This document shows, one piece after another, positions 15,981 to 27,594 of a stretch of DNA of 64,000 nucleotides. Positions within the stretch are counted from its first letter, which is position 1. Each line of letters begins with the position of its first letter. The stretch covers positions 67,630 through 131,629 of the forward strand of contig CAYNYK010000002.1 in assembly GCA_964401335.1 (NCBI GenBank), written 5' to 3'. This DNA comes from an uncultured Planctomycetales bacterium (GTDB lineage Bacteria; Planctomycetota; Phycisphaerae; UBA1845; PWPN01). The position numbers were made by a program, and so were the translations under genes. The notes beneath the pieces are model-generated. The model saw only the letters and a list, made by a program, of their open reading frames with translations, was not told where the DNA came from and ran no database searches.

Positions 15981-16193
15981 GTGCGTGCTTTACGGGTCAT
16001 GAAAAGAGTTGATCAGGCAGGCATGATTCAACTCCAGGATCTGCCTTTGCCGGCCGGGCAAATGGTCGAAGTGATCCTGCTCCCTATTGACGATGACATG
16101 ACCGACCTGGCCCAGGCGAGCGAATCCGCCCTCGAGTTCTGGAACAATGAAATTGATGACCGGGTCTGGAACGATGCCCTATCGTCAACGTGA
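15981..16193 (+). CDS. Putative antitoxin partner of the MazF-like toxin
   Basis: 70 aa with an acidic C-terminus (SESALEFWNNEIDDRVWNDA). Overlaps the toxin start by 20 nt. Confidence 0.55.
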   Translation: MRALRVMKRVDQAGMIQLQDLPLPAGQMVEVILLPIDDDMTDLAQASESALEFWNNEIDDRVWNDALSST

Positions 16194-16545
16194 GATACTC
16201 CTGGTTCCCATACCGTTCAGCGACCTGACCAGCCGGAAGGTCCGCCCCGTTGTGGTATTATCCAATGATGTCTATAACTGCGGTGGCCCCGACCTGCTCG
16301 TCGCGGGTATCACCTCGAACGTATCCTCCCGACCCTACACCGTCGGACTGGACACGCCGCAGTTGGAGCAAGGGGCGATAAGGCACCCGAGCATGGTGCG
16401 GGCGGACAAGATCTTCAGCATCGATCAAGCGATCATCCTTAAATCCATCGGTATCGTGCGTCAAACTACGTTTGAGCAGATTCGTCAGCAGGTTCGCGAC
16501 TTGATAGGGGACGCCCGACTCGATGAGGATGCGCAAAATCTTTGA
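16174..16545 (+). CDS. mazF: MazF/PemK-family type II toxin (mRNA interferase)
   Basis: MPYRQREILLVPIPFSDLTSRKVRPVVVLSND...MVRADKIFSIDQ matches the PemK/MazF SH3-like fold signature. ATG at 16174. Confidence 0.8.
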   Translation: MPYRQREILLVPIPFSDLTSRKVRPVVVLSNDVYNCGGPDLLVAGITSNVSSRPYTVGLDTPQLEQGAIRHPSMVRADKIFSIDQAIILKSIGIVRQTTFEQIRQQVRDLIGDARLDEDAQNL

Positions 16546-16723
16546 TTCGGACAAAAACGACAGACTCCTGTCGATTCGAGGGTATCTCTTCTGGCCGGCC
16601 GACAAATGTTTGGGGTTGGCTGGGGTATTCGATAGAATGTCTCGACAGGACTGAATACACCTTCTGCAAATCGCCGGACGGATTCCGGCAAACGAGGCAA
16701 ATGTCGTGGCTGTCTACAAACAA

Positions 16724-17707
16724 ATGAGTATCATCCGCGCGATCCCATCGCCACCGCGGCGGGCGGCCGATGTCCATAAAGGCGATTGCGGCCGCGTGCT
16801 GGTCCTGGCCGGCAGCCTGGGCATGTCCGGCGCGCCCGCGTTGGTCGGACTGGCGGCCTTGCGCAGCGGCGCGGGGCTGGTCACCATCGCCGTGCCTCGT
16901 GGCATTCAGCAGGCGGTGGCCACTTGCTGTCCGTGTGCGACCACCATCGGCCTGCCGGAAACGCCCACCGGCCAGATCGACCCGCAAGCGGCACGATCAT
17001 TATTCAAGGACATGGGCCTGCTCGACCCGGCGCCGGCCGGTAATCCACCGGACTGCCTTCTGACCGGCCCGGGTATCGGGCGCGGCGACGGCCGCTATGG
17101 CCGCGATTTCTGGGAACTGATCAACGCCTTCCGCAACGGCCCGCTGGTCCCGGCGGTGATCGATGCCGACGCTCTGAACCTGACCGAAAAATCCAAACCG
17201 GATCGGCCTGACGGCTGGGACGGCCAGTTCCATTTCCGAACCGTCATCACTCCTCATCCCGGCGAACTGGCTCGTATGCACGGCGTTTCCACCCGCGAGA
17301 TCCAGGCGGATCGTCGCGAGTACGCCATCCGCACCGCCCGAATGATGAAGGCCAGCCACGATTCCCTGGAATACACGCCGACCGTTGTCCTCAAAGGTGC
17401 CGGAACAGTGGTCACCGATGGCCAACGGATGTATACAAACCGCACGGGCAATCCCGGCATGGCCACCGGCGGCAGCGGCGATGTGCTCACCGGGATCATC
17501 GGCGCGTTGATCGGCCAGGGTATGGACAGCTTCGAGGCGGCCGTCACCGGCGTTTACGTGCATGGCCTTGCCGGCGACCTGGCCGCCCAAAAGATCGGCC
17601 AGATCAGCCTGATCGCCACCGACCTGATCGATGCTTTGCCGCAGGCGTTCATGAAAATCACGCGATCTCGAAAGAAAACCGCCGCGCGCCGATCGACGGG
17701 CGGGTGA
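16724..17707 (+). CDS. nnrD: ADP-dependent NAD(P)H-hydrate dehydratase (YjeF C-terminal type)
   Basis: HKGDCGRVLVLAGSLGMSGAPALVGLAALRSGAGLV and GGSGDVLTGIIGAL motifs. ATG at 16724 preferred over GTG at 16706. Confidence 0.88.
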   Translation: MSIIRAIPSPPRRAADVHKGDCGRVLVLAGSLGMSGAPALVGLAALRSGAGLVTIAVPRGIQQAVATCCPCATTIGLPETPTGQIDPQAARSLFKDMGLLDPAPAGNPPDCLLTGPGIGRGDGRYGRDFWELINAFRNGPLVPAVIDADALNLTEKSKPDRPDGWDGQFHFRTVITPHPGELARMHGVSTREIQADRREYAIRTARMMKASHDSLEYTPTVVLKGAGTVVTDGQRMYTNRTGNPGMATGGSGDVLTGIIGALIGQGMDSFEAAVTGVYVHGLAGDLAAQKIGQISLIATDLIDALPQAFMKITRSRKKTAARRSTGG

Positions 17708-17715
17708 GTAACATC

Positions 17716-18852
17716 ATGCGTCGTCAAATCGCCGATCTACCCCTGCATGGAGGCAAAGCCCCCGACTGGTTGTTCCAACGTATGCACCGGCTGGCCGGCT
17801 CGATCATTCAATTGATTGTCGCTGACGTCGGGCCGGGCGAGATGCTCAATCGCCTGGCTGACCCGCTGTGGTTCCAGGCCTTCGGCTGCGTACTCGGTTT
17901 CGACTGGCATTCCAGCGGGTTAACTACCGTGACCTGCGGGGCGGTCAAGGAGGCTTACCGGCGGATGGGTCCGAACCTCGGCATCCACGTGGCCGGCGGC
18001 AAAGGCGGCGTCTCCCGCAAAACGCCCGAGCACATCGCCCGCGTCGCCGACCGCCGGGCTTTGCAGGGCGACCGTCTGATCTACGCCTCGCGGACGGCCG
18101 CCAAGGTGGACAGTGCCGCCGTGCAGGACGGGTACCAAATCTATACCCACCATTTTTTCTTCAGCGACGACAACGAATGGTGCGTCGTGCAGCAGGGCAT
18201 GAATGAAACTGAGGGCTACGCCCGCCGTTATCACTGGCTGGGCAATACGGTGCGCGATTTCGTTTGCGAGCCACACAACGCCGTCGCCTCGCCGCCGAGC
18301 ACAAGCCCCGACCTGCTGAACATGGTCGCGGGCGAGGCCGGACCGTCGCGGGAACGTTCGGCCGAACTGGCCCGCATGAATCCGGATCGACTCTTGCGTG
18401 AAATCACCGTCGGCCCGTCGCTTTTTCTGCCGGCCCATCATGCGGTCCATGATTCGGATATCAATCCTCAGAGATTGGGTAAAATCCTGCGACTGGTGCA
18501 CGAACGTCAGCCGGCCGACTTCGAAGCCCTGCTCGGCGTACCCGGCGTGGGGCCCAGGACCGTCCGTAGCCTGGCCCTGATCGCCGAACTGATCTACGGA
18601 GCTGCGGCCTGCCGCAAGGACCTCACCCGACGATGGAATCCTCGTGACCCGGCAACCTTCAGTTACGCGCACGGCGGCAAGGACGGATACCCCTTCCCGA
18701 TCGATCGGCCGACCTATGACCGCTCCATCGCCCTGCTCGAACAAGCCATCCGGCGGGTGAAAGGCGATCCGGCGAGCAAGGACCAGGCGCTGCTGCGTCT
18801 GGCTCGGATCATGGAACACCAAGGCCAACGTGCGATGGGATCCGCTGACTGA
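17716..18852 (+). CDS. DUF763 domain protein
   Basis: MRRQIADLPLHGGKAPDWLFQRMHRLA...FGCVLGFDWHSSGLTTV matches the DUF763 N-terminus as I recall it. The start region overlaps the nnrD stop. Confidence 0.8.
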   Translation: MRRQIADLPLHGGKAPDWLFQRMHRLAGSIIQLIVADVGPGEMLNRLADPLWFQAFGCVLGFDWHSSGLTTVTCGAVKEAYRRMGPNLGIHVAGGKGGVSRKTPEHIARVADRRALQGDRLIYASRTAAKVDSAAVQDGYQIYTHHFFFSDDNEWCVVQQGMNETEGYARRYHWLGNTVRDFVCEPHNAVASPPSTSPDLLNMVAGEAGPSRERSAELARMNPDRLLREITVGPSLFLPAHHAVHDSDINPQRLGKILRLVHERQPADFEALLGVPGVGPRTVRSLALIAELIYGAAACRKDLTRRWNPRDPATFSYAHGGKDGYPFPIDRPTYDRSIALLEQAIRRVKGDPASKDQALLRLARIMEHQGQRAMGSAD

Positions 18853-18973: not shown

Positions 18974-19981
18974 TCAGATATGCTTTTTGAGTTTGGCGAG
19001 AGATTTGTCGGTAACGAATTCGACGCCGATTTCGGTTTCGTTTTCGTCAATCGGTTTCATGCGTCTGACTTGCGCAGGTACCCACAACATGCTGCCCGAT
19101 TGGCCGATTCCAAGTATGATCGTCGTTTCCGGTCGAATCAGTAAGCCGCCGGTCATCTCCCGCTCGATCGGATCTTCCAAGGCATGGTTTTTTATCCGCA
19201 GACAGGCCCCCCCCTCCGACACGTTGGTGAGCCGGGCATTGATCCGTTTGCGCCCGTAATTGGTTTTCACGATTAGTTGCACATGTTGGTGCATACTTTT
19301 CCGCGGATACCGTCGCCGGGATTTTTCCTTTATCTCCGGCTCGACCTCCGGCACTTCGCCGACCAGGTTTTTTATTCTTTTCCGTAACGAGGTTCCCAGT
19401 ATCCCCCAAGAGAGGCGGGCAATATCGTAGGCCCGGACAACCTTATAGATTTCCTCGGCGATCGCCCTGAGTGATTGCATCTCCCGCAAGGAAGACTGAA
19501 TCGCGGTGGTGATTTCCTGCGAAGGGTCTTTGGTCCTTTCAACGTCAAACGTCCCCTTTTGAAATGCGCCGATCTTGATGCCCCCTACCGTTTCGGTGCA
19601 ATGAGCCACACAAATACAACCTGACCAAGAGACATCGTTGACGCTGATACTGGCCCGTAACCAGGTTCCCGGACTGATATAGATTTGGGAAATGAAACAT
19701 AGACCGTCCTTGGAAATGTTGTAAAGCGGATATTCGACAGGCGGGCCTACGCCTTTGTCGGTCAATACTTGAATTGTCACGGACATACTGAAAGAATAGC
19801 GTGGCGCATATCGCTTCCCCAGCCAGCGATCCTTCGGCAGGTCATCGCGGTTGTCAAGTGTCAAAAGCAAACCATCCAATGATTCCACTTGCTGTTTTAA
19901 CGATTCCGATGACATGCATGCCTCTTCGTTCGGTAGTTCCATGGCGACGGTTTCACGTTTCCCTTGGCACGTACGATGCAC
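18974..19981 (-). CDS. Tandem PilZ-domain protein (two c-di-GMP-binding PilZ domains)
   Basis: Domain 1 has RYAPR...NISKDG. Domain 2 has RRYPR...NVSEGG. Both fit RxxxR plus (D/N)xSxxG. Confidence 0.8.
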   Translation of the reverse strand: MHRTCQGKRETVAMELPNEEACMSSESLKQQVESLDGLLLTLDNRDDLPKDRWLGKRYAPRYSFSMSVTIQVLTDKGVGPPVEYPLYNISKDGLCFISQIYISPGTWLRASISVNDVSWSGCICVAHCTETVGGIKIGAFQKGTFDVERTKDPSQEITTAIQSSLREMQSLRAIAEEIYKVVRAYDIARLSWGILGTSLRKRIKNLVGEVPEVEPEIKEKSRRRYPRKSMHQHVQLIVKTNYGRKRINARLTNVSEGGACLRIKNHALEDPIEREMTGGLLIRPETTIILGIGQSGSMLWVPAQVRRMKPIDENETEIGVEFVTDKSLAKLKKHI

Positions 19982-20212
19982 GGTTCGACGGTCGTCATCC
20001 CGATATTCGTATCAACGCGGTCCTTTGCGTAACGATCATAAGCGTACTCCCCTCACACTACGGTATCGGCTATTTCCCACCCGCGCTCAGGTATGGCCGG
20101 GAGATGATCTTCCATGATGCCCGCAGCTTCCGCGGCCGCCGCGAGCTTAGTAACGGTTACCCCGAATCGGCCGATAAATAAGAGGCGGATAATTACTCCA
20201 CTTCCCCCAAGG

Positions 20213-20698
20213 TCATTTTTGAGCAGATCCCATTTTTTCGGCGAAGGCTAGATCATGGGAAAGAATAGGGGTGGATCCCGCCGACTTCAGCAGGATTCCG
20301 ACCTCGTGGTAACCCCGGCCGACATATCGGCAAAAACGCACCTGACCATATAAAAAAAGTGCGGGGTGGGTCGGGACATTAATCTCCACCTCCAACGGTT
20401 CATCAATCAAGAAACAACGACGCACCACAAGCCCCAGACCTCTTTGAGAAATATTTCTGGTCCGCCCGGGAAAAACAGTGATCGTGCCTTCGCCCGCCAA
20501 GAAAAAACGGACTTTACAGTCCACCCGAAACCGCTTACGTTTTTGATTCCGCTGAGCGGACGAATCCCGGTTCGCTTTCGCAAGATCATGCTGTTGGGAG
20601 CAAATATCCATATCATGAATAAGCTTGGCCAGGGTCGCTTCGTCACGAATAAACCGAGTTAGAATCGTATGATCGATCTGTGGTACTTGAACAGCCAT
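20213..20698 (-). CDS. PilZ-domain protein
   Basis: RKRFR...NISQRG. I prefer the ATG at 20698 (GGAGAAAGGGA RBS, MAVQVPQIDH...) to the track start at 20899. Paralogous to the next gene. Confidence 0.75.
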   Translation of the reverse strand: MAVQVPQIDHTILTRFIRDEATLAKLIHDMDICSQQHDLAKANRDSSAQRNQKRKRFRVDCKVRFFLAGEGTITVFPGRTRNISQRGLGLVVRRCFLIDEPLEVEINVPTHPALFLYGQVRFCRYVGRGYHEVGILLKSAGSTPILSHDLAFAEKMGSAQK

Positions 20699-20971
20699 TC
20701 CCTTTCTCCGTTTGATTAAACTGGCCCTTCTTCCATTTCGGCTTGCAAGTAAGCCCACATTACCTATGAAATCACGACTCATCCGGATACTCGACTCGCC
20801 GCCTCCAATCGGGCTTGCCAGGGGCGATAACTTTCGCGCACGAACATCAAGATCGGATTCACTCACGATATGGGCAGGCCGGCTCGAGATGCCGGACAAA
20901 TCAGTAGCGGCGAAAAGAATCGAGCATCGCGAAATGGACCCATAACCGAATGGCGAGGATTCGCGCCCGAA

Positions 20972-21421
20972 TCAGGATCGAATCGTCGAAAACTCGTGCA
21001 ATTGCTCGGAAAGGTGGGATTTTTGGGCCATCACCTTCATTTCCGCGCCGGTCTCGTAAAATCCTTTCGCTATGTAACGGCAAAAACAGACCGTTCCGGT
21101 AATATAGGTGATCGGCCGACCCGGCAGCTCGACCTCCAACTCGACCGGCTCATGAATTGAAAACATTCTTTTGGACATGAAGGAGAAGCCGCCCCGTGAG
21201 AGATTCCGTGTACGGCCGGTAATATCCAGAACCTGATGCTGTCCGGGAGAAAAGAATCGAATCGTGCAAATCACGCGGAAAGGCTGCCGTCGGCAGTGTC
21301 TTTCCTCAGCCTTGGTTGCCGAGAGCCCGGAGGTTTGCCGTTCGGCCCAATCATCCAATTCGTTCAGAATGGCGTCTAATAACTGTTTGCTATGCTCAAT
21401 GTTCAAAGCGGGCTTCCTCAA
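20972..21421 (-). CDS. PilZ-domain protein
   Basis: RQPFR...NLSRGG. TTG start. The C-terminal FCRY(I/V)xxGxxExG block is shared with 20213-20698. Confidence 0.75.
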   Translation of the reverse strand: MRKPALNIEHSKQLLDAILNELDDWAERQTSGLSATKAEERHCRRQPFRVICTIRFFSPGQHQVLDITGRTRNLSRGGFSFMSKRMFSIHEPVELEVELPGRPITYITGTVCFCRYIAKGFYETGAEMKVMAQKSHLSEQLHEFSTIRS

Positions 21422-21727
21422 GAGGATACAACTTTCCGCGGAACACTACTTGTTCAAAATCGGCCATCAAGAAGGGTCTGTTTACTAAATTTATGTTGAT
21501 TGACCCTCGAAAAACCTTTGGCCATCAGGTGTTGTGGAAAATGGGTTAAATTCCCTGGAAGGGTATGGCCAATGAACATTCCTGATCGTCCGCGCCCCCG
21601 GAAAAGATCAACCTTACGATTCACTTTGCCTGGAGAATATCCGCGGGGGGCCTGGGGGCCGATTTGCATTCCGCCGCGATGATGTTAACTTGTTGTCCAT
21701 GGCAGAGGGCATTTCCGGTCACGCTTT

Positions 21728-22474
21728 ATGACCATGGTAAGGAGTACTATTATGGTTTCCGTTTATCAGAAGTTCGTCGTCAACGCCCTGCTTGCGGGAC
21801 TGATGCTTTGCGGCTGTCAAAGCAGCCAATCATCCATCCAGATTCGTGTCCCTCTCGACCGGCAGTATGTTGTTAACGAGCAAGCGGATCGTCCCATAAA
21901 GGTAAGTCTACCGGGCGACCAGCCTTTTAACATCCATATCAAGCAAAGCAGCCAAAATCGTGGGGCTGACGGTCGAGCAGAGAGCAAATCGGATGCCGAC
22001 GCCGCCGGTCAAGCCTTCGGTTTCGCGGAAGTTAACAAAGGAGGAAGCGCCGCGGCGGAGTTCACCATCGGACATCGCATCGCCAACCAGACCGAAAATC
22101 CCCAAGATCTGGCCATCGAACTCGATTTCCAATGGGTGCAATCTCTGCATACATCAGCCGAACCCGAAGCCAAAACGCTGGCCCGTGCCGAGCTGGCCAT
22201 ATCGGTTATCAGCGCCAAGGGAAAGACCCTGGCCACCATCCAAGTGCTGAAAACCGACAGCAATCAGGCCCGAGCGTCGGCTGAACTGCAAGACCACCGT
22301 GGGTTCTCCGTTTCTCTTGAGCCCAAAATGCATTACGATATCGTTCTGACCGGAAAAGTTGAGGCCAGGAGCGCGGCTGGACAGGAAGCCGAGGCCCGGT
22401 TGGAGGTGAAAAATCTCGGCATCAACCTGAGTTTTACCTCCGCGTCCCAGGAGACCACCCGGGCCGGACCATGA
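21728..22474 (+). CDS. Hypothetical lipoprotein
   Basis: Signal peptide with the lipobox-like sequence LMLCGCQSS. No recognisable domain. Lies 40 nt upstream of the FHA-ATPase gene on the same strand. Confidence 0.6.
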   Translation: MTMVRSTIMVSVYQKFVVNALLAGLMLCGCQSSQSSIQIRVPLDRQYVVNEQADRPIKVSLPGDQPFNIHIKQSSQNRGADGRAESKSDADAAGQAFGFAEVNKGGSAAAEFTIGHRIANQTENPQDLAIELDFQWVQSLHTSAEPEAKTLARAELAISVISAKGKTLATIQVLKTDSNQARASAELQDHRGFSVSLEPKMHYDIVLTGKVEARSAAGQEAEARLEVKNLGINLSFTSASQETTRAGP

Positions 22475-22513
22475 CCGGCTTTTTTCAGGGAGGCAACAGC
22501 CGAGGTTGTCATC

Positions 22514-24235
22514 ATGGCGGTAATTCAGATTCTTAACGAACAGGGGGCAAAGGTCGTTACCCTGCCGAACGGTCCGGCGATCATCGGCCGTTCCAGCGAC
22601 AATGATGTGGTCTTGGACGACAAGCTTGCCAGCCGAAAACATTGTTCGCTCGAGCCGGTCAACGGCGGGTTCATCCTTCGCGACCTCGGTTCGCGAAACG
22701 GCACGGGTATCCAGGGCAAACCCGTCAAGGAAGCCCGGCTCAAATACGGCGAGACGTTCACCATCGGTAAAACCGTCCTCCGCGTTTTTGAACACTCCGC
22801 CCCGAATATCGAGATTCTCGACTCCGCCGAAACGATCGTCGAGGAAATGGGCGACGACGAAGAGGCCGAGGCCCTCGAAGCCCTGGTGGCCGAGGCCGAG
22901 GAGGAAGAGGAACCCCTCGTTGAACAGGTCAATGTTTCCCAGGATGAAATCCTGGCCAAGGCCCGGCGCGATTTGAACAGCCTGCGTTCGGCCGGCGAAG
23001 ATCCCGGTTTCGGCCTGGAGCAGGTCGCGCTTTTCGATCACCAGGGTAAACCGGTACATACCAGCGACAAGGACGACAGTTCCTCCGAGGCCGTCCGCAC
23101 GCTGCGCCTGCTCTACTACGGAGCCTTCCGCACCCGGGCCACCGACCTGCATTTCGACCCAGTCGAGGAAGGCTGCCAGGTCCGGTTTCGGGTGGACGGT
23201 AAAATGATCTCCGTCGTCCTGCTGCCCGAACAGCTCGGCCGGGCCCTGCTCGGCGTGGTCAAGATTCTGTCGGAATTGGACATCGCCGGACGGCAGGGTA
23301 TCCAGGACGGCAGCTTCGTGGTCAGTTGCAACCGCCGCGTCGACAACCGCGTGTCCCTCACGCCTTCCATGCACGGGGAGAAACTGGTCATCCGCGTTCT
23401 GGACTCGGCCACCCTCCCCACCCGGCTGGACAAACTCGGCATGCCCCGCAACATGCTCAAATCCATCACCTCCCTATGCAAAATGGACGCGGGGATGATC
23501 ATCGTCAGCGGGCCGACCGGCAGCGGAAAAACCACTACGCTCTATACCGCCCTGCGAACCATCGACTCGCGTTCGCGTAATGTGGTCACCATCGAGGATC
23601 CCATCGAGTACCATCTGGCCGGCATTACGCAAATCCAGGTCAACGCCAAAAAAGGCCTCGATTTCGCCCCTATCCTAAAATCTGTTTTGCGACAAGACCC
23701 CGATGTGATTCTAGTCGGCGAGATGCGCGACCGCGAAACCGCCCAGACCGCCCTGCAGGCGGCCATGACCGGCCACCTGGTCTTTTCCACCCTCCACGCC
23801 CGCGACACCATCGGCTCAATCTATCGTCTCCTGGACCTCGGCGTTGAAAACTACATGATCGCCAACGCCGTCTCCATGTGCCTTGCCCAGCGGCTGATCC
23901 GCCTGCTCTGCGGTGAATGTAAAAAGGCCTACAAGCCCAAGCCCAGCCAGATCGCCCGCATGCGCGTCGACGCCCGCACCCTGCCGACGCTCTACGCCCC
24001 CACCGGTTGCCAGCGCTGCATGGGCGTCGGCTTCTGGGGTCGGGCGGCCATTTTCGAACTGTTGAGTTTCAACGACAAACTTCGCGACGCCCTCATCACC
24101 ACCACCACGATCAAGGACATCCGCGACGCCGCCGGCGAGTGGTCGTTTCAGACCCTGCTCGAGAGCGGCTATCAGAAAGTCCTCGAAGGCCTCACCAGTC
24201 TCGAGGAAGTCGAACGCGTCGCCACCCGTGAATAA
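22514..24235 (+). CDS. FHA-domain-fused GspE/PilB-family secretion ATPase
   Basis: N-terminal FHA (IIGRSSDNDVVLDDKLASRKHCSLE...LRDLGSRNGT) and an acidic linker. Walker A GPTGSGKTTT and Walker B ILVGEMRD. Tetracysteine CGEC...CQRC. Confidence 0.9.
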   Translation: MAVIQILNEQGAKVVTLPNGPAIIGRSSDNDVVLDDKLASRKHCSLEPVNGGFILRDLGSRNGTGIQGKPVKEARLKYGETFTIGKTVLRVFEHSAPNIEILDSAETIVEEMGDDEEAEALEALVAEAEEEEEPLVEQVNVSQDEILAKARRDLNSLRSAGEDPGFGLEQVALFDHQGKPVHTSDKDDSSSEAVRTLRLLYYGAFRTRATDLHFDPVEEGCQVRFRVDGKMISVVLLPEQLGRALLGVVKILSELDIAGRQGIQDGSFVVSCNRRVDNRVSLTPSMHGEKLVIRVLDSATLPTRLDKLGMPRNMLKSITSLCKMDAGMIIVSGPTGSGKTTTLYTALRTIDSRSRNVVTIEDPIEYHLAGITQIQVNAKKGLDFAPILKSVLRQDPDVILVGEMRDRETAQTALQAAMTGHLVFSTLHARDTIGSIYRLLDLGVENYMIANAVSMCLAQRLIRLLCGECKKAYKPKPSQIARMRVDARTLPTLYAPTGCQRCMGVGFWGRAAIFELLSFNDKLRDALITTTTIKDIRDAAGEWSFQTLLESGYQKVLEGLTSLEEVERVATRE

Positions 24236-24617
24236 CGCAAACGCGACCCCCGCGACTTTTGCGTCTTACCGTCCGGCTCGTCCAAGGGAGACTTTGGCGT
24301 ATAAAGCACGCATCCTGGCCGGCAAGCTTAAGCGGATGTTAGGGCGGTCTACGGTGGTGGTGGTCAGCGGCGCCCCGCAGGTTGGCAAGAGCACGCTGTT
24401 GAAGTACGAATTGCCGGGTTGGGATACCGTGGTATTTGATCCCGCATTGGATATGGGTAATGCGCGACAGGATCCTGACCTGTTCCTGGACAACCACCCA
24501 GCTTCGTTGATTCTCGATGAAATCCGATACGCTCCGGAATTGGTGACGGCCCTCAAACGACGCGTTTTATCTATTGCGACAGTGAAGATACTGCCAGGTT
24601 CGCAACTATTACGATAG
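24228..24617 (+). pseudogene. Truncated AAA-ATPase (DUF4143-type) remnant
   Basis: 129 aa with P-loop SGAPQVGKSTLL and LILDEIRYAPEL, ending abruptly at GSQLLR. Family members as I recall them are about 400 aa. GTG start overlaps the upstream stop. Confidence 0.55.
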
Positions 24618-24760
24618 GGATTCTGATAGGGTACGCAGGCGGGATGTGTAGGTCGCTAAAAGCATTCGAATGGGTTCAAGAACCGGCGGAAAATAGCCCG
24701 CCCTACGATTTGCTGATGAACACCCCCCTTGATTGCGGGGTTCAGGGATGATAAACCCCC

Positions 24761-26404
24761 TTGGCCGGTTTTGACAGTCTCGGCCGGTTCGGTTCCCATA
24801 GTCTATGTTTATTGGGAGGAACCGCGATTCACCTGAAAAGCCTTTTGCGTCGGAGTCGGAGTTTTCGCGGCGGGTTGTATCTGCCCGTCCGCCGCGATCT
24901 GGCCGCGCCGCCGGGGATCCGCGATTTCCCGAATCCGCCGATGCTGTGCGTTCCCATGATCCAGCACGACGGGCCGGCCGCCCGGATCGTCGTGCAGGTC
25001 GGCCAGCGGGTCCAGGCGGACCAGCTCATCGGCCGTGGCGAAAAACCCGACAGCCTCGACGTGCATGCCCCGCTGGCCGGCAAAGTCGTCGCCCTCGAAC
25101 GCATCGACACCGCCCGGCACAACGACGTGCCGGCCGTCCGCATCGAAACCGACCCGTCCGCTGCTCCGGCTTGCGATTCTACTCCGGCCTTGGAACGTTC
25201 CACCGGCGAGACGCCGGTGCCACACCTGTTCGGCGAGACACCGGTGCCACACCCATTCGGCGAGACGCCGGCGCCACACCCATTCGGCGAGACGCCGGCG
25301 CCACATTCATTCGGCGAGACGCCGGCGCCACATTCATTCGGCGAGACGCCGGCGCCACACAATAAAATACACACCGGCGGGACGCCGGTGCCACACAATA
25401 AAATACACACCGGCGAGACGCCGGCGCCACACCCGTTTGCGGACCCGCTCACTCCCGAGCAATTGGCCGAGCTGGCTGATCGGGCCGGCCTGATCGACTT
25501 CGGACTATCCGCCGCCCCACTCGGCCGGCAGCTTCGCCAAGCCGCCACCGGACAGCTTAACGATTTGATTATCAACGCGCTCGACGACGAGCCGGAGCCG
25601 GCCGATCGAAGCTGCCTGCTCGATGTCTCGCTGGAGACCGTCATTTCCGCCGCCGTCCGGCTGCGCAAGACGCTCAAGGCCCGGCGACTCTGGCTGGTGG
25701 TTGATCGCTACGACCCGCACCGCGTGCGCCGCTGCCGCGCGGCTGCCGCCGGAAAACCCGTACGCGTGCTCGCCCTGCCCAATAAATATCCGCAGGCTCA
25801 TCCCAACCTGTTGACCTATGCGGTCACCGGCCGGGAGCCCCCTTACGGCTCGCCGCCGATGCGTGTCAGCGTGTTCGTACTTGCGCTTGAAGCCCTGCTC
25901 GCTCTGGAAACCGCCCGCGTCCAGCGCCGCCCGATGACCCGGCGGCTTGTCACCGTCACCGGCGACGCCGTGCGGAAAAAAGGCCGTTACCTTATTCCCT
26001 TCGGCACACCCTTTGCCCACGTTCTGCAACACGTGGACCTGACCCGGCCGGTAACTCGCCTGATTGACGGGTCTTTGCTGACCGGCCGAGCCGTCGCCTC
26101 GGTTGATGCCGTGGTCACCCGGCAAACCACGAACTTGTTGGCCATCAGCCGCGACAATGATTACGTCGCCAATCCGGGCCCTTGCGTGCGCTGCGGACGG
26201 TGTCAGGACGATTGCCCGGTCGGCCTCGATCCGCAGGCCCTGCTGGATGTCTACGAACGCGGGCAGATTCAGGAGGCGTTGGCCCTGTGGCCGCACGCCT
26301 GCCTCGAATGCGGTCTGTGCAGCCACGTCTGTCCGGCGGAGCTCCCCTTGTCGGAAGCGACAGCCAGACTTAAACATCTTATACCTCTACAGGTGCAATG
26401 GTGA
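24761..26404 (+). CDS. RnfC/RsxC-like protein with a repeat insertion and a degenerate nucleotide-binding motif
   Basis: RnfC_N-like VPMIQHDGPAARIVVQVGQRV...HAPLAGKV. Central RnfC-like LIINALDDEPE...PNKYPQAHPNLL...RLVTVTGDAV. Two intact CxxCxxCxxxCP ferredoxin motifs. The start codon (TTG at 24761) is uncertain. Confidence 0.8.
   Translation: MAGFDSLGRFGSHSLCLLGGTAIHLKSLLRRSRSFRGGLYLPVRRDLAAPPGIRDFPNPPMLCVPMIQHDGPAARIVVQVGQRVQADQLIGRGEKPDSLDVHAPLAGKVVALERIDTARHNDVPAVRIETDPSAAPACDSTPALERSTGETPVPHLFGETPVPHPFGETPAPHPFGETPAPHSFGETPAPHSFGETPAPHNKIHTGGTPVPHNKIHTGETPAPHPFADPLTPEQLAELADRAGLIDFGLSAAPLGRQLRQAATGQLNDLIINALDDEPEPADRSCLLDVSLETVISAAVRLRKTLKARRLWLVVDRYDPHRVRRCRAAAAGKPVRVLALPNKYPQAHPNLLTYAVTGREPPYGSPPMRVSVFVLALEALLALETARVQRRPMTRRLVTVTGDAVRKKGRYLIPFGTPFAHVLQHVDLTRPVTRLIDGSLLTGRAVASVDAVVTRQTTNLLAISRDNDYVANPGPCVRCGRCQDDCPVGLDPQALLDVYERGQIQEALALWPHACLECGLCSHVCPAELPLSEATARLKHLIPLQVQW
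25205..25433. repeat. In-frame tandem repeat (five 27-nt units, then two 36-nt units and a partial) inside the rnfC-like gene
   Basis: The unit GGCGAGACGCCGG(C/T)GCCACAC(C/A)(C/T)ATTC encodes GETP(A/V)PH(P/S)F. Later units encode G(E/G)TP(A/V)PHNKIHT. Most units (GGC variant) contain the 8-bp palindrome CGCCGGCG. Confidence 0.9.
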
Positions 26405-27594
26405 GCAGATTTTCGTCAGGGCCGCGCGATCCGCAACCGGTGCTCCTGCCGGAAGCGGGTATGCTGCGCCTCGGCGCACCGCCGTTCAGCCACGGACCGG
26501 CCGGGGTCTCGTTTATCGCCGTGACCTTTCTGTTCGCCGCGTCGGCGGTGCTGCTGGCCGGCCTGATCCTGTTCGGCTGGCCCGTGATCCGAGTGACGGC
26601 CATCGCCGTCGCCGTCGCTTTGCTGACGGAGTCCGTCTTCGCCCTTCTGATCCGCCGCGGCCGTTCCTGGTCGGAAAGCCACGCTTTGCTGATCGGTCTG
26701 CTATTCGCTCTCACCCTTCCGCCGCTGGTCGATTGGCGGGTGGTGGTTTGGGGTTCCATTATCGCGGTCGCCGTCGGCCAGAATCTCGGCGGCGGACTGG
26801 GTAATTACACCTGGCATCCGGTCGCCCTGGCCCGGGTCGTGGTGCAAATGCTGTTTCACGATCAACTCACTGCGACTGAGCATCCGGTCCTGGCCGCCGG
26901 TCATCTGCTGTGGGGCAATCTGAACCACGGGCAACCGCTGCCCGCCTTGCAGACCTGGACCTCGGCCATCCCGCCCGCGGGCAAGGAAGCGTGGATCATC
27001 CCCGATACCTCTTTATTGCTCCATTATCCACTATCGGGCACAAGCGCGTCCTCGCCGGCAGCCGCCTTGGCTGAGTTGATCCGCGACCGGTTGCCACCCT
27101 GGCCCGAGGCCATCGCCGGGCTGGCCGGAGGCGCGATCGGGACGGCCTGCGTGCTGGCCGTGCTGCTCGCCGGATTGTTTCTGCTGTGGCGAGGCTTTGT
27201 CCGCTGGCCAATGGTACTGGCCGCCCTGACAGCCGCCGCTGCCATGATTTTTATCCTGCCGCTGCGCGTGCTGAGTGAAAACGGCGAGATGATCCGCTAT
27301 TGGTTACCTGGAGCGGCGGTCTGGCAAGGCCTGCCCGTTGGGCTGGTCTACCTCGCTTACCAGTTGACCGCTGGCGAATTTCTGCTGGTTCTTCTGTTGC
27401 TGGCCCCCGATCCAACCAGTTCGCCGCTCACCACCCGCGGGCACATCTGGTTCGGTCTGATCATCGGATTAACCACCATGCTGCTGACGATTCTTGCGGG
27501 GATTCCCGCCGCCGGTTACTGGGCCCTGCTGGCGGCCAATACCTTCGTCCCCCTCATCAATCGCCGCACCCGCCGGCGCGTGTTCGGGACATAA
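26398..27594 (+). CDS. RnfD/NqrB-family polytopic membrane protein (divergent)
   Basis: LLIGLLFALTLPP...AVGQNLGGGLGNYTWHPVALARV and LAGGAIGTACVLAVLLAGLFLLWRGFVRWP align by eye with the RnfD blocks (fGGlG.N.fNPA and GSiGEtS...W). Overlaps the rnfC-like stop by 7 nt. Confidence 0.75.
   Translation: MVSRFSSGPRDPQPVLLPEAGMLRLGAPPFSHGPAGVSFIAVTFLFAASAVLLAGLILFGWPVIRVTAIAVAVALLTESVFALLIRRGRSWSESHALLIGLLFALTLPPLVDWRVVVWGSIIAVAVGQNLGGGLGNYTWHPVALARVVVQMLFHDQLTATEHPVLAAGHLLWGNLNHGQPLPALQTWTSAIPPAGKEAWIIPDTSLLLHYPLSGTSASSPAAALAELIRDRLPPWPEAIAGLAGGAIGTACVLAVLLAGLFLLWRGFVRWPMVLAALTAAAAMIFILPLRVLSENGEMIRYWLPGAAVWQGLPVGLVYLAYQLTAGEFLLVLLLLAPDPTSSPLTTRGHIWFGLIIGLTTMLLTILAGIPAAGYWALLAANTFVPLINRRTRRRVFGT

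What the first reader, a model, noticed from the sequence alone, without database searches (positions are those of the whole stretch)
21728..24235. Orphan GspE/PilB-type ATPase with an N-terminal FHA domain, co-oriented with a lipoprotein and lacking any platform, pilin or secretin gene
The ATPase has a complete core: GPTGSGKTTT, ILVGEMRD, and the CGEC...CQRC zinc site. The usual N-terminal T2SSE_N/MshEN region is replaced by an FHA phosphothreonine-binding domain and an acidic linker (EEMGDDEEAEALEALVAEAEEEEE). No GspF/PilC, pilin or secretin gene is present in 64 kb. The only co-oriented neighbour is an uncharacterised lipoprotein 40 nt upstream. In some MshE/PilB ATPases the N-terminal domain is the c-di-GMP sensor. 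Here that role may be outsourced to the adjacent PilZ proteins, while FHA adds Ser/Thr-kinase input.
Basis: partly seen in the sequence, partly recalled or inferred. Interest (0 to 1): 0.6.

Follow-up and report, generated by a model that had tools for sequence, protein, structure and literature searches.

The report
FHA-fused orphan pilus/secretion motor ATPase
This is an intact pilus/secretion-type motor ATPase whose usual docking domain is replaced by a phosphothreonine-reading FHA domain; it belongs to an uncharacterised family confined to Phycisphaerae (planctomycetes) that has no machine of its own nearby and is probably a signal-gated extra motor for a pilus-like apparatus encoded elsewhere.

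Summary
Window 22514-24235(+) encodes a 573-aa protein with an FHA domain (residues 1-95), an acidic disordered linker (102-136) and a complete PilB/GspE core. The Walker A, Walker B, Asp-box, His-box and four zinc-site cysteine residues checked are 96-100% conserved in 113 homologues. A real lipoprotein gene lies 39 nt upstream. The window holds no platform, prepilin or secretin gene.

The ATPase is not a one-off. It belongs to a monophyletic FHA-GspE family, found full-length in 25 of 121 sampled Phycisphaerae genomes and in none outside the class. This scan met the family before in another genome (e1-4006518).

Its neighbours depend on lineage:
- In the window's lineage, a small PilZ gene with intact c-di-GMP motifs diverges from a lipoprotein-ATPase pair (at least 10 contigs).
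- In the sister family, the gene sits between a true PilT/PilU ATPase and a membrane-anchored, catalytically dead GspE paralogue.
- In this genome those two genes are adjacent on another contig, without the FHA-ATPase between them.

An ATPase-less T2SS-like locus does exist (contig C32), but its distribution does not track this family.

Best reading: a phosphothreonine-gated accessory motor of type IV filament machinery. The partner is unproven. I rate it a new variant of a known kind, of moderate interest.

The parts
22514..24235 (+). FHA-GspE: 573-aa FHA-fused PilB/GspE-class ATPase
   Evidence: Translation. Pfam FHA + T2SSE. AlphaFold mean pLDDT 90.2. Forms a monophyletic family.
22514..22798 (+). 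FHA domain, residues 1-95
   Evidence: Pfam PF00498 E 2.3e-17 and PF16697 E 5.3e-15. Phosphothreonine-site residues G25, R26, S40, R41, H43, N62, G63 are 100% conserved in 113 homologues. Confident beta-sandwich in the model.
22817..22921 (+). Acidic disordered linker, residues 102-136
   Evidence: pLDDT below 50 over residues 102-136. Across the family the linker has a median length of 39 aa, 24% acidic and 3% basic, and its sequence is not conserved.
23093..24217 (+). N2 + C-terminal ATPase domains (T2SSE), residues 194-568. Includes Walker A at 23510-23536 and the tetracysteine zinc site at 23909-24019.
   Evidence: Pfam PF00437 E 1.2e-111. Residues K339, E361, E403, H421/H428 and C466/C469/C499/C502 are 99-100% conserved. 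Nearest solved structures are PilB (6olj, 5tsg, 3jc8) and GspE (4pht, 1p9r), E about 1e-88.
21752..22474 (+). 240-aa lipoprotein (ORF open from 21728), 39 nt upstream and probably co-transcribed
   Evidence: No Pfam or NCBIfam hit. Lipobox Gly-Cys invariant in 20 homologues. AlphaFold pLDDT 85.8, all-beta. Sits immediately upstream of an FHA-GspE gene in WIN, L004, G062, L006, L001, L138 and L139, and in 3 of 3 loci reached through the lipoprotein itself.
20972..21421 (-). 149-aa PilZ protein, divergent from the lipoprotein-ATPase pair; the conserved PilZ partner in this lineage
   Evidence: Pfam PilZ E 1.7e-6. RxxxR and NxSxxG motifs are conserved in the orthologues aligned from 6 other loci. 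Homologues lie divergent upstream of FHA-GspE in L004, G062, L137, L006, L007, L138, L139, L142 and L143.
20213..20899 (-). 228-aa PilZ paralogue
   Evidence: Pfam PilZ E 1.2e-10. Paralogous to the 149-aa PilZ (37% identity) and 41-48% identical to the small PilZ genes of L137, L138 and L139.
18974..19981 (-). Genus-specific neighbour.
   Evidence: Pfam PilZ E 4e-12. An orthologue was found only in G062 (61% identity).
21422..21751 (.). Divergent intergenic region shared by the PilZ gene and the lipoprotein-ATPase pair
   Evidence: Defined by the gene coordinates. The consensus promoter scan found nothing above background here. A regulatory role is inferred only.

Best explanation
The gene encodes a catalytically competent, hexamer-type PilB/GspE-class motor ATPase. 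It belongs to a Phycisphaerae-specific paralogue family in which the N-terminal partner-binding and c-di-GMP-binding domains (N1E, MshEN) were replaced once by an FHA domain on a flexible acidic tether.

It has no platform, pilin or secretin of its own. I propose it is a supernumerary, signal-gated motor. A Hanks-type Ser/Thr kinase phosphorylates a threonine on a membrane-associated component of a type IV filament machine encoded elsewhere. The FHA domain reads that phosphothreonine, and the tether brings the N2/CTD ring to the machine, where it drives assembly. The machine is most likely pilus-like, given the recurrent pairing with a true PilT/PilU retraction ATPase and a membrane-anchored dead GspE paralogue.

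In the window's lineage a second input was added. A c-di-GMP-binding PilZ protein is encoded divergently, and a beta-sandwich lipoprotein is encoded in the same operon.

Shown: the architecture, motif conservation, monophyly, distribution and synteny patterns. Inferred: phosphothreonine-dependent docking, the identity of the docking target, c-di-GMP control through PilZ, and any role for the lipoprotein.
For: Architecture and intact motifs:
- establish the domains and motif conservation.
- No MshEN hit, whereas the genome's canonical GspE on contig C69 has one.

Family status:
- The FHA site is 100% conserved across the family.
- The family forms its own clade (16 rows, SH-aLRT 99), outside the clade (98) that holds the C69-type GspE, the GspE+GspF types, PilB and PilB2 of four genomes.
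- Full-length matches occur in 25 of 121 Phycisphaerae genomes. None occur among the genomes from other classes in a 151-genome phylum sample at E <= 1e-105.

Supernumerary status:
- In G000 and G048 every GspF either sits beside a different ATPase or can be paired with another ATPase that lacks a platform of its own. This one is left over.

Link to pilus motors:
- In sister family f2 the gene lies directly after the orthologue of G000 C3:1554-2777 in 7 of 8 genomes. That protein passes the NCBIfam PilT/PilU cut-off (400 bits against 319).
- In G013, G111, G003 and the metagenome contig L002 it lies directly before the membrane-anchored pseudo-GspE.
- Class-wide, the PilT/PilU gene and the pseudo-GspE gene are adjacent in more than 60 genomes, so the FHA gene was inserted between them.

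Signalling capacity:
- The genome has 7 Hanks-type kinases and 6 FHA proteins.
- The PilZ-lipoprotein-ATPase locus is conserved on at least 10 contigs, and the PilZ motifs are intact.

Precedent:
- FHA-IDR-ATPase 'class III' CpaF orthologues are described for Tad pili (PMC12019362).
Against: - No kinase, phosphatase or phospho-acceptor is linked to the gene in this genome.
- No neighbour is conserved across the whole family. Families f10 and f16 carry the ATPase alone.
- The six f16 genomes carry the ATPase but had no pseudo-GspE match at E <= 1e-70, and f10 had no PilT/PilU orthologue at E <= 1e-105.
- The PilZ family, and the adjacency of the lipoprotein gene to the ATPase, are lineage-specific.
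- Nothing here shows ATPase activity, hexamer formation, binding to any partner, or transcription.
Confidence: 0.5

Rival explanations
1. Displaced engine of the T2SS-like machine. The FHA-ATPase is simply the missing GspE of the ATPase-less locus on contig C32 (GspF, GspG, GspJ-like, GspK, PilM/GspL-like, secretin), encoded elsewhere in the genome.
For: - C32:20845-44291 has GspF, T2SSG, T2SSK, PilM_2 and a secretin, but there is no T2SSE hit on that contig.
- In G111 the orthologous locus lies 17 kb from the FHA-ATPase module.
- By HMM score the core is marginally closer to GspE than to PilB (433 against 418 bits).
Against: - Distributions are discordant in both directions. The C32-type PilM/L protein is found in families f3, f4, f5, f7 and f14, which lack the FHA-ATPase. 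It is essentially missing in f10, where 13 of 16 genomes match the ATPase at E <= 1e-100, 8 of them over the full length including FHA.
- A canonical MshEN-GspE (C69:1254-2942) is also an orphan. It is conserved as an orphan in four genomes and is the more orthodox partner.
- The N1E domain that binds GspL is absent.
Confidence: 0.12
2. Part of a separate machine without pilins or GspF. The FHA-ATPase works with the PilT/PilU-family ATPase, the membrane-anchored catalytically dead GspE paralogue and the CvpA-like 616-aa membrane protein (G000 C3:1554-6577). The dead paralogue serves as its membrane platform or as a hetero-oligomer partner.
For: - The gene order PilT-like > FHA-GspE > pseudo-GspE > CvpA-like occurs in G013, G111 and L002; G003 has it without the PilT-like gene.
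- The pseudo-GspE has 3-4 N-terminal transmembrane helices. Its Walker A Lys is Val or Met, its Walker B Glu is Asp, and its His box is lost, but the zinc cysteines are kept.
- The pseudo-GspE occurs in 105 of 121 genomes, next to PilT/PilU in more than 60. It is followed by the CvpA-like gene in every locus examined: G000, G062, G048, G003, G111, G013 and L002.
Against: - The module is near-universal, while the FHA-ATPase is present full-length in only about a fifth of genomes, so the module does not need it.
- Family f16 has the FHA-ATPase but no pseudo-GspE match.
- In this genome and in five f2 genomes the genes are unlinked.
- Adjacency to the pseudo-GspE among the representative genomes is confined to family f2 (3 of its 8 genomes; the lineage of L002 is unknown).
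Confidence: 0.2
3. Lineage-specific c-di-GMP module. In this lineage PilZ, the lipoprotein and the ATPase form a self-contained unit. PilZ-c-di-GMP switches the ATPase, and the output concerns the lipoprotein or the envelope rather than a pilus.
For: - The divergent PilZ and the tightly spaced lipoprotein-ATPase pair (1-40 nt apart) are kept while the flanking genes change, down to about 60% ATPase identity.
- The PilZ motifs are intact.
Against: - A cytoplasmic ATPase has no evident route to act on a periplasmic lipoprotein without a membrane partner.
- The lipoprotein family occurs in families f3 and f4 without the ATPase. In f2-f4 it sits among housekeeping genes.
- The PilZ family is missing from most FHA-ATPase genomes.
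- The lipoprotein fold is a generic beta-sandwich with no informative match (best TM 0.34/0.43).
Confidence: 0.1

Closest known systems
PilB/PilF (type IVa pilus) and GspE/EpsE (T2SS) extension ATPases
   Same: Both have N2 + CTD domains with Walker A, Walker B, Asp box, His box and a tetracysteine zinc site. The best solved relatives are PilB (6olj, 5tsg, 3jc8) and GspE (4pht, 1p9r) at E about 1e-88 over residues ~184-570.
   Different: This protein has no N1E or MshEN domain; FHA plus an acidic disordered linker stands in its place. It scores below both curated equivalog cut-offs (433 against 630, 418 against 676). It forms a separate clade from the genome's own PilB and GspE paralogues. It has no adjacent platform protein.
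'Class III' CpaF/TadA orthologues: FHA - disordered region - Tad ATPase (PMC12019362)
   Same: The same architectural solution: an N-terminal phosphothreonine-binding FHA domain tethered by a disordered region to a secretion-superfamily ATPase.
   Different: The core here is PilB/GspE-type, not CpaF/TadA-type (TIGR03819 gives 51 bits against a cut-off of 373). The gene is not in a Tad locus; this genome's CpaF is on contig C56 with TadB/C and a secretin. According to that paper, class III CpaF is mostly betaproteobacterial. This is therefore an independent fusion.
PilZ-dependent and c-di-GMP-dependent control of extension ATPases (FimX-PilZ-PilB of Xanthomonas; MshE/PilB MshEN domains). From my own knowledge, not checked in a paper here.
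   Same: A PilZ-domain protein is genetically tied to an extension-type ATPase, and c-di-GMP is the likely signal.
   Different: The PilZ proteins here keep both c-di-GMP-binding motifs, whereas, as I recall, the Xanthomonas PilZ adaptor lacks them. No FimX-like gene is nearby. The ATPase lacks the N-terminal region that PilZ binds in that system. No binding was tested.
FHA-gated secretion machines (T6SS Fha1/TagH with PpkA-PppA; T3SS YscD/PrgH cytoplasmic FHA-like domain)
   Same: An FHA domain couples a secretion apparatus to Ser/Thr phosphorylation or to scaffold assembly. The N-terminus also matches Pfam Yop-YscD_cpl (E 5.3e-15) and, weakly, TagH.
   Different: In those systems the FHA domain is on a separate scaffold protein, not fused to the motor ATPase. 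No kinase-phosphatase pair is linked here.

Membership tests
T2SSE superfamily (Pfam PF00437; PilB/GspE/PilT/VirB11-like ATPases) | Profile score above the curated cut-off; Walker A, Asp box, Walker B and His box present | tested here: met
   373.4 bits against a cut-off of 24.9. Motif residues are 96-100% conserved in 113 homologues.
GspE (T2SS ATPase, NCBIfam TIGR02533 equivalog) | Whole-protein score above the equivalog cut-off | tested here: not met
   433.2 bits against 630.25.
GspE (T2SS ATPase) | N1E domain that binds GspL, and a gene inside or paired with a gsp operon | tested here: not met
   No N-terminal GspE or MshEN domain was found. No gsp gene lies in the window. The distribution is discordant with the C32-type T2SS.
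PilB (type IVa pilus assembly ATPase, NCBIfam TIGR02538 equivalog) | Whole-protein score above the equivalog cut-off | tested here: not met
   417.8 bits against 675.65.
PilB (type IVa pilus assembly ATPase) | MshEN/GSPII N-terminal domains; clusters with pilT/pilC | tested here: not met
   No PF05157 hit. The genome's real PilB-PilT-PilB2-PilC-pilin cluster is on contig C78. The protein falls outside the PilB clades in the tree. It is adjacent to a PilT/PilU-family gene only in sister family f2.
PilB/GspE extension-ATPase class (functional class) | Tetracysteine zinc-binding motif in the CTD, absent from PilT-type retraction ATPases | tested here: met
   C466, C469, C499 and C502 are 99-100% conserved (invariant).
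FHA domain (Pfam PF00498), functional phosphothreonine reader | Conserved Gly-Arg, Ser-x-x-His and Asn-Gly residues of the phosphopeptide site | tested here: met
   63.6 bits against a cut-off of 20.7. G25, R26, S40, R41, H43, N62 and G63 are 100% conserved. Actual phosphopeptide binding cannot be tested with these tools.
Class III CpaF (FHA-IDR-Tad ATPase) | CpaF/TadA-type core and a Tad locus context | tested here: not met
   TIGR03819 gives 51.2 bits against 373.15. CpaF roots far from this clade in the tree. The Tad locus is on contig C56.
PilZ c-di-GMP receptor (the 149-aa neighbour) | RxxxR and (D/N)xSxxG motifs | tested here: met
   RQPFR and NLSRGG are present and conserved in 8 aligned homologues. 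Pfam gives 28.7 bits against 22.5. Ligand binding cannot be tested here.
Bacterial lipoprotein (the upstream gene) | Signal peptide followed by a lipobox with an invariant Cys | tested here: met
   The ...L-x-G-C motif has G21 and C22 invariant in 20 homologues. The model shows an N-terminal helix followed by a beta-sandwich.

The most novel reading that the evidence does not exclude
The FHA-ATPase, the PilT/PilU-family ATPase, the membrane-anchored catalytically dead GspE paralogue and the CvpA-like membrane protein together form a previously undescribed Phycisphaerae envelope machine. In it a dead, membrane-embedded ATPase paralogue takes the place of the GspF/PilC platform. The live motor is recruited by phosphothreonine and, in this lineage, by PilZ-c-di-GMP as well.
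Probability: 0.15. Interest if true: 0.8.

Novelty: new variant of a known kind. Interest (0 to 1): 0.45.

Why it matters
Extension ATPases of type IV filament machines are normally recruited and regulated through N-terminal domains that bind GspL or PilM, or c-di-GMP. This family has swapped that module for a phosphothreonine reader on a flexible tether. It would directly link Hanks-type kinase signalling to a PilB/GspE-type pilus or secretion motor, as the FHA-CpaF fusions suggest for Tad pili. Planctomycetes are rich in such kinases and in pilus-like surface structures, and the regulation of those structures is largely unknown. Two lineage-specific contexts give concrete, testable candidate partners: PilZ plus lipoprotein here, and PilT plus a dead membrane-anchored GspE in the sister family. 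The near-universal PilT / pseudo-GspE / CvpA-like module found along the way may be the more interesting object.

Tried and rejected
- Pattern-based locus search. The search for related loci with the single protein returned only four true relatives and about 75 unrelated FHA proteins, so it was of little use for context.
- Greedy gene calling. A longest-ORF caller failed on these GC-rich loci because antisense ORFs masked real genes. I replaced it with conservation-weighted ORF choice.
- Literature. None found a paper describing an FHA-GspE or FHA-PilB fusion. Only FHA-CpaF (PMC12019362) and the archaeal ArnA FHA regulator (PMC4858521) turned up.
- Lipoprotein as a pilotin or PilP/GspC HR-domain protein. 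Rejected as unsupported. Foldseek gave only generic beta-sandwich and CBM hits, the best being Bd1399 at TM 0.34/0.43.
- PilZ or the lipoprotein as universal partners. Rejected by distribution.
- 'Displaced T2SS ATPase'. Considered and down-weighted on distribution and on the presence of a canonical orphan GspE.
- Promoter and terminator scan of 20800-24900. Nothing above shuffled background.
- Downstream ORFs. The 129-aa AAA_14 ORF and the RnfC/D-like pair are not conserved next to the ATPase, so I excluded them from the system.
Full report
**Observation**

Window 22514-24235(+) is an uninterrupted 573-codon ORF.
- Pfam finds an FHA domain at residues 23-85 (E 2.3e-17; also Yop-YscD_cpl, E 5.3e-15) and a T2SSE domain at residues 194-568 (E 1.2e-111). 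There is no MshEN/T2SSE_N match.
- NCBIfam places the core between GspE (433 bits, cut-off 630) and PilB (418 bits, cut-off 676), below both equivalog thresholds.
- An AlphaFold model built on 76 homologues is confident (mean pLDDT 90.2). It shows an FHA beta-sandwich (1-95), a disordered stretch (102-136, pLDDT below 50), a short helical lead-in, and the N2 and C-terminal ATPase domains.
- Nearest solved structures are PilB (6olj, 5tsg, 3jc8) and GspE (4pht, 1p9r), with E about 1e-88 over residues ~184-570 only.

The upstream ORF (21728-22474; gene callers start it at 21752) ends 39 nt before the ATPase start.
- It has no Pfam or NCBIfam match.
- It has a signal peptide and a lipobox whose Gly-Cys is invariant in 20 homologues.
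- It folds confidently as an all-beta sandwich (pLDDT 85.8).

Three PilZ genes lie divergently at 18974-21421. Whole-genome scans put all T2SSF, secretin and prepilin (N_methyl) hits on contigs other than C2, the window's contig.

**The family**

The protein search returned more than a hundred 90%-identity clusters with the same FHA+T2SSE architecture at 44-76% identity. Those that carry a name are labelled Phycisphaerae, Phycisphaerales or Planctomycetota MAGs, with only generic product names.

Conservation in 113 aligned homologues (invariant columns):
- The phosphothreonine-site residues G25, R26, S40, R41, H43, N62 and G63 are 100% conserved.
- The catalytic Lys, Glu and His residues and the four zinc cysteines are 99-100% conserved.
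- The linker is not conserved in sequence, but it is consistently short (median 39 aa), acidic (24%) and nearly free of basic residues.

Phylogeny. I built a maximum-likelihood tree of 49 T2SSE paralogues from this genome, four relatives and several metagenome contigs. The FHA proteins form one clade (SH-aLRT 99). They lie outside the clade (98) that contains the canonical MshEN-GspE, two GspE+GspF types, PilB and PilB2. The fusion therefore arose once, and the family is a deep paralogue, not a recent derivative of PilB or GspE. The rooting on a single long CpaF branch is uncertain.

Distribution.
- Full-length matches that include the FHA domain occur in 25 of 121 sampled Phycisphaerae genomes. 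They fall in families f1, f2 (8 of 8), f10, f16, f11 and f18.
- No full-length match occurs among the genomes from other classes in a 151-genome sample of the phylum at E <= 1e-105.
- This scan met the same family before in another genome (note e1-4006518).

**Context in the window's lineage (ATPase at least 59% identical)**

- The roughly 240-aa lipoprotein gene sits immediately upstream and co-oriented, 1-40 nt away, in the window, L004, G062, L006, L001, L138 and L139. The same holds in all three loci that I reached through the lipoprotein rather than the ATPase: L141, L142 and L143.
- A 150-160-aa PilZ gene lies divergently upstream in the window, L004, G062, L137, L006, L007, L138, L139, L142 and L143. 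It is absent from L001, L141 and L140.
- These PilZ proteins are homologous to one another (34-66% identity) and keep RxxxR and NxSxxG.
- The flanking genes differ between these contigs, so the three-gene arrangement is being retained.

The links do not extend to the whole family.
- Among 121 representative genomes, the PilZ family gives strong hits only in this genus.
- The lipoprotein family is order-wide (15 of 17 genomes). That includes families f3 and f4, which lack the ATPase. In f2-f4 it lies among housekeeping genes that I identified by eye from their sequences (nadD, ligA, pckA, rsmE).
- Foldseek found no informative structural relative for the lipoprotein; the best was Bd1399 at TM 0.34/0.43.

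**Context in the sister family (f2, 43-48% identity)**

- In 7 of 8 genomes the gene directly follows a roughly 400-aa ATPase that is the orthologue (56-61% identity) of G000 C3:1554-2777. That protein passes the NCBIfam PilT/PilU cut-off (400 bits against 319).
- In G013, G111, G003 and the metagenome contig L002 the gene directly precedes the orthologue (38-41% identity) of G000 C3:2740-4674.
- That second protein is a T2SSE paralogue with 3-4 N-terminal transmembrane helices. Its Walker A lysine is Val or Met, its Walker B glutamate is Asp, and its His box is lost, while the zinc cysteines are kept. It is a membrane-anchored pseudo-ATPase.
- It occurs in 105 of 121 genomes. By coordinates it is adjacent to the PilT/PilU gene in more than 60 of them. 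It is followed by a CvpA-like membrane protein of about 600-650 aa in every locus I examined: G000, G062, G048, G003, G111, G013 and L002.
- So a near-universal PilT / pseudo-GspE / CvpA-like module exists, and in family f2 the FHA-ATPase lies exactly between its first two genes. Which arrangement is ancestral is unresolved. In this genome the module is intact on contig C3 without the FHA-ATPase, which sits on C2 with PilZ and the lipoprotein.
- In families f10 and f16 the FHA-ATPase stands alone. The f16 genomes gave no pseudo-GspE match at E <= 1e-70.

**Is it the displaced engine of another machine?**

The genome has ten T2SSE hits:
- a PilB2-PilT-PilB cluster followed by PilC and pilins (contig C78);
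- a short GspE with two GspF genes (C17);
- CpaF with TadB/C and a secretin (C56);
- the PilT/pseudo-GspE pair (C3);
- a lone PilT-like gene (C110);
- a canonical MshEN-GspE with no secretion neighbours (C69);
- the FHA-ATPase.

Contig C32 carries a T2SS-like locus with GspF, GspG, a GspJ-like protein, GspK, a PilM/GspL-like protein and a 1738-aa secretin, and no ATPase. Three points argue against the FHA-ATPase being its motor:
- The C69-type GspE is also an orphan. It is conserved as an orphan in all four genomes examined.
- The C32-type PilM/L protein occurs in families that lack the FHA-ATPase (f3, f4, f5, f7, f14). It is essentially missing from f10, where 13 of 16 genomes match the ATPase (8 of them full-length).
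- The GspL-binding N1E domain is absent.

In G111 the two loci are 17 kb apart with unrelated genes between them. That is weak evidence for the link. In G000 and in the complete genome G048, pairing ATPases with platforms leaves the FHA-ATPase over. It looks supernumerary.

**Mechanism**

Shown: a competent PilB/GspE-class motor whose partner-binding N-terminus is replaced by a conserved, functional-looking phosphothreonine reader on a flexible acidic tether.

Inferred:
- A Hanks-type kinase phosphorylates a threonine on a membrane-associated component. The genome has seven such kinases, none of them linked to this gene.
- The FHA domain then docks the motor there.
- The target is part of type IV filament machinery, most likely pilus-like, given the recurrent genomic tie to a true PilT/PilU ATPase and to the pseudo-GspE.
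- In this lineage PilZ adds c-di-GMP control.

The lipoprotein's role is unknown.

The only described analogue I found is the FHA-IDR-CpaF 'class III' architecture of Tad ATPases (PMC12019362). The core here is not CpaF-type, so this is an independent fusion. I give the accessory signal-gated motor reading 0.5, a separate machine with the pseudo-GspE module 0.2, the displaced T2SS engine 0.12, and a self-contained PilZ-lipoprotein module 0.1.

**Limits**

- No interaction or activity data exist.
- Genome samples are representatives, and kin are not independent.
- Thresholds separating orthologues from paralogues were set by E-value and alignment start, not by trees, except.

**Verdict**

It misses that this is a class-wide family with a second, more telling context. 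I rate it a new variant of a known kind, with interest about 0.45.

Noticed in passing
outside the window: G000 contig C3:1554-6577 (orthologues in L115, L120, L121, L135, L136, L002): A near-universal Phycisphaerae module. A PilT/PilU-family ATPase (407 aa) is followed by a membrane-anchored T2SSE paralogue with dead Walker A, Walker B and His-box motifs but intact zinc cysteines (644-aa ORF), then by a 616-aa CvpA-like membrane protein. The pseudo-ATPase is in 105 of 121 genomes and is adjacent to the PilT gene in more than 60. I found no description of it in the literature searched.
   Followed up: partly
outside the window: G000 contig C32:20845-44291: A T2SS-like locus (GspF, GspG, GspJ-like, GspK, PilM/GspL-like, two very large proteins, a 1738-aa secretin) with no ATPase gene. 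The canonical MshEN-GspE is a lone gene on contig C69:1254-2942, between gpmA-, isochorismatase- and PhoH-like genes.
   Followed up: partly
window 21752-22474 and homologues (alignment A2): The lipoprotein belongs to a small, order-restricted family: 18 clusters in the 5.8-billion-protein collection, and 15 of 17 genomes of the order. It has a confident beta-sandwich model but no informative structural relative (best Bd1399, TM 0.34/0.43). Its function is unknown.
   Followed up: partly
window 24228-24617 (+): A 129-aa ORF with a partial AAA_14 match starts 8 nt before the ATPase stop.
   Followed up: partly
window 24761-27594 (+): An RnfC-like protein (RnfC_N, Complex1_51K, 4Fe-4S) and an RnfD-like protein overlap by 7 nt, with no other rnf genes following. 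They are not conserved next to the ATPase in relatives.
   Followed up: no
window 16147-16545 (+) and 16706-18852 (+): A MazF/PemK toxin gene. Next to it is an NAD(P)HX dehydratase (Carb_kinase) gene followed by a DUF763 gene; that pair is syntenic with the ATPase locus in G062 and L001, and the Carb_kinase gene alone in L139 and L141.
   Followed up: no
G000 contigs C2:22085, C25:6787, C44:986, C32:2891, C63:6193: Five further FHA-domain proteins. Three have open frames of 570-590 aa, similar in length to the FHA-ATPase, but none has a T2SSE hit. One (C25) lies 6 kb from a Hanks-type kinase gene. They were not characterised.
   Followed up: no
L127:10976-13267 and L129 (family f10 loci): In two f10 genomes the FHA-ATPase is followed, co-oriented, by a 660-760-aa protein that, read by eye, has an N-terminal zinc ribbon, transmembrane segments and a repeat-rich C-terminal region. 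It is a possible lineage-specific partner. It was not analysed.
   Followed up: no
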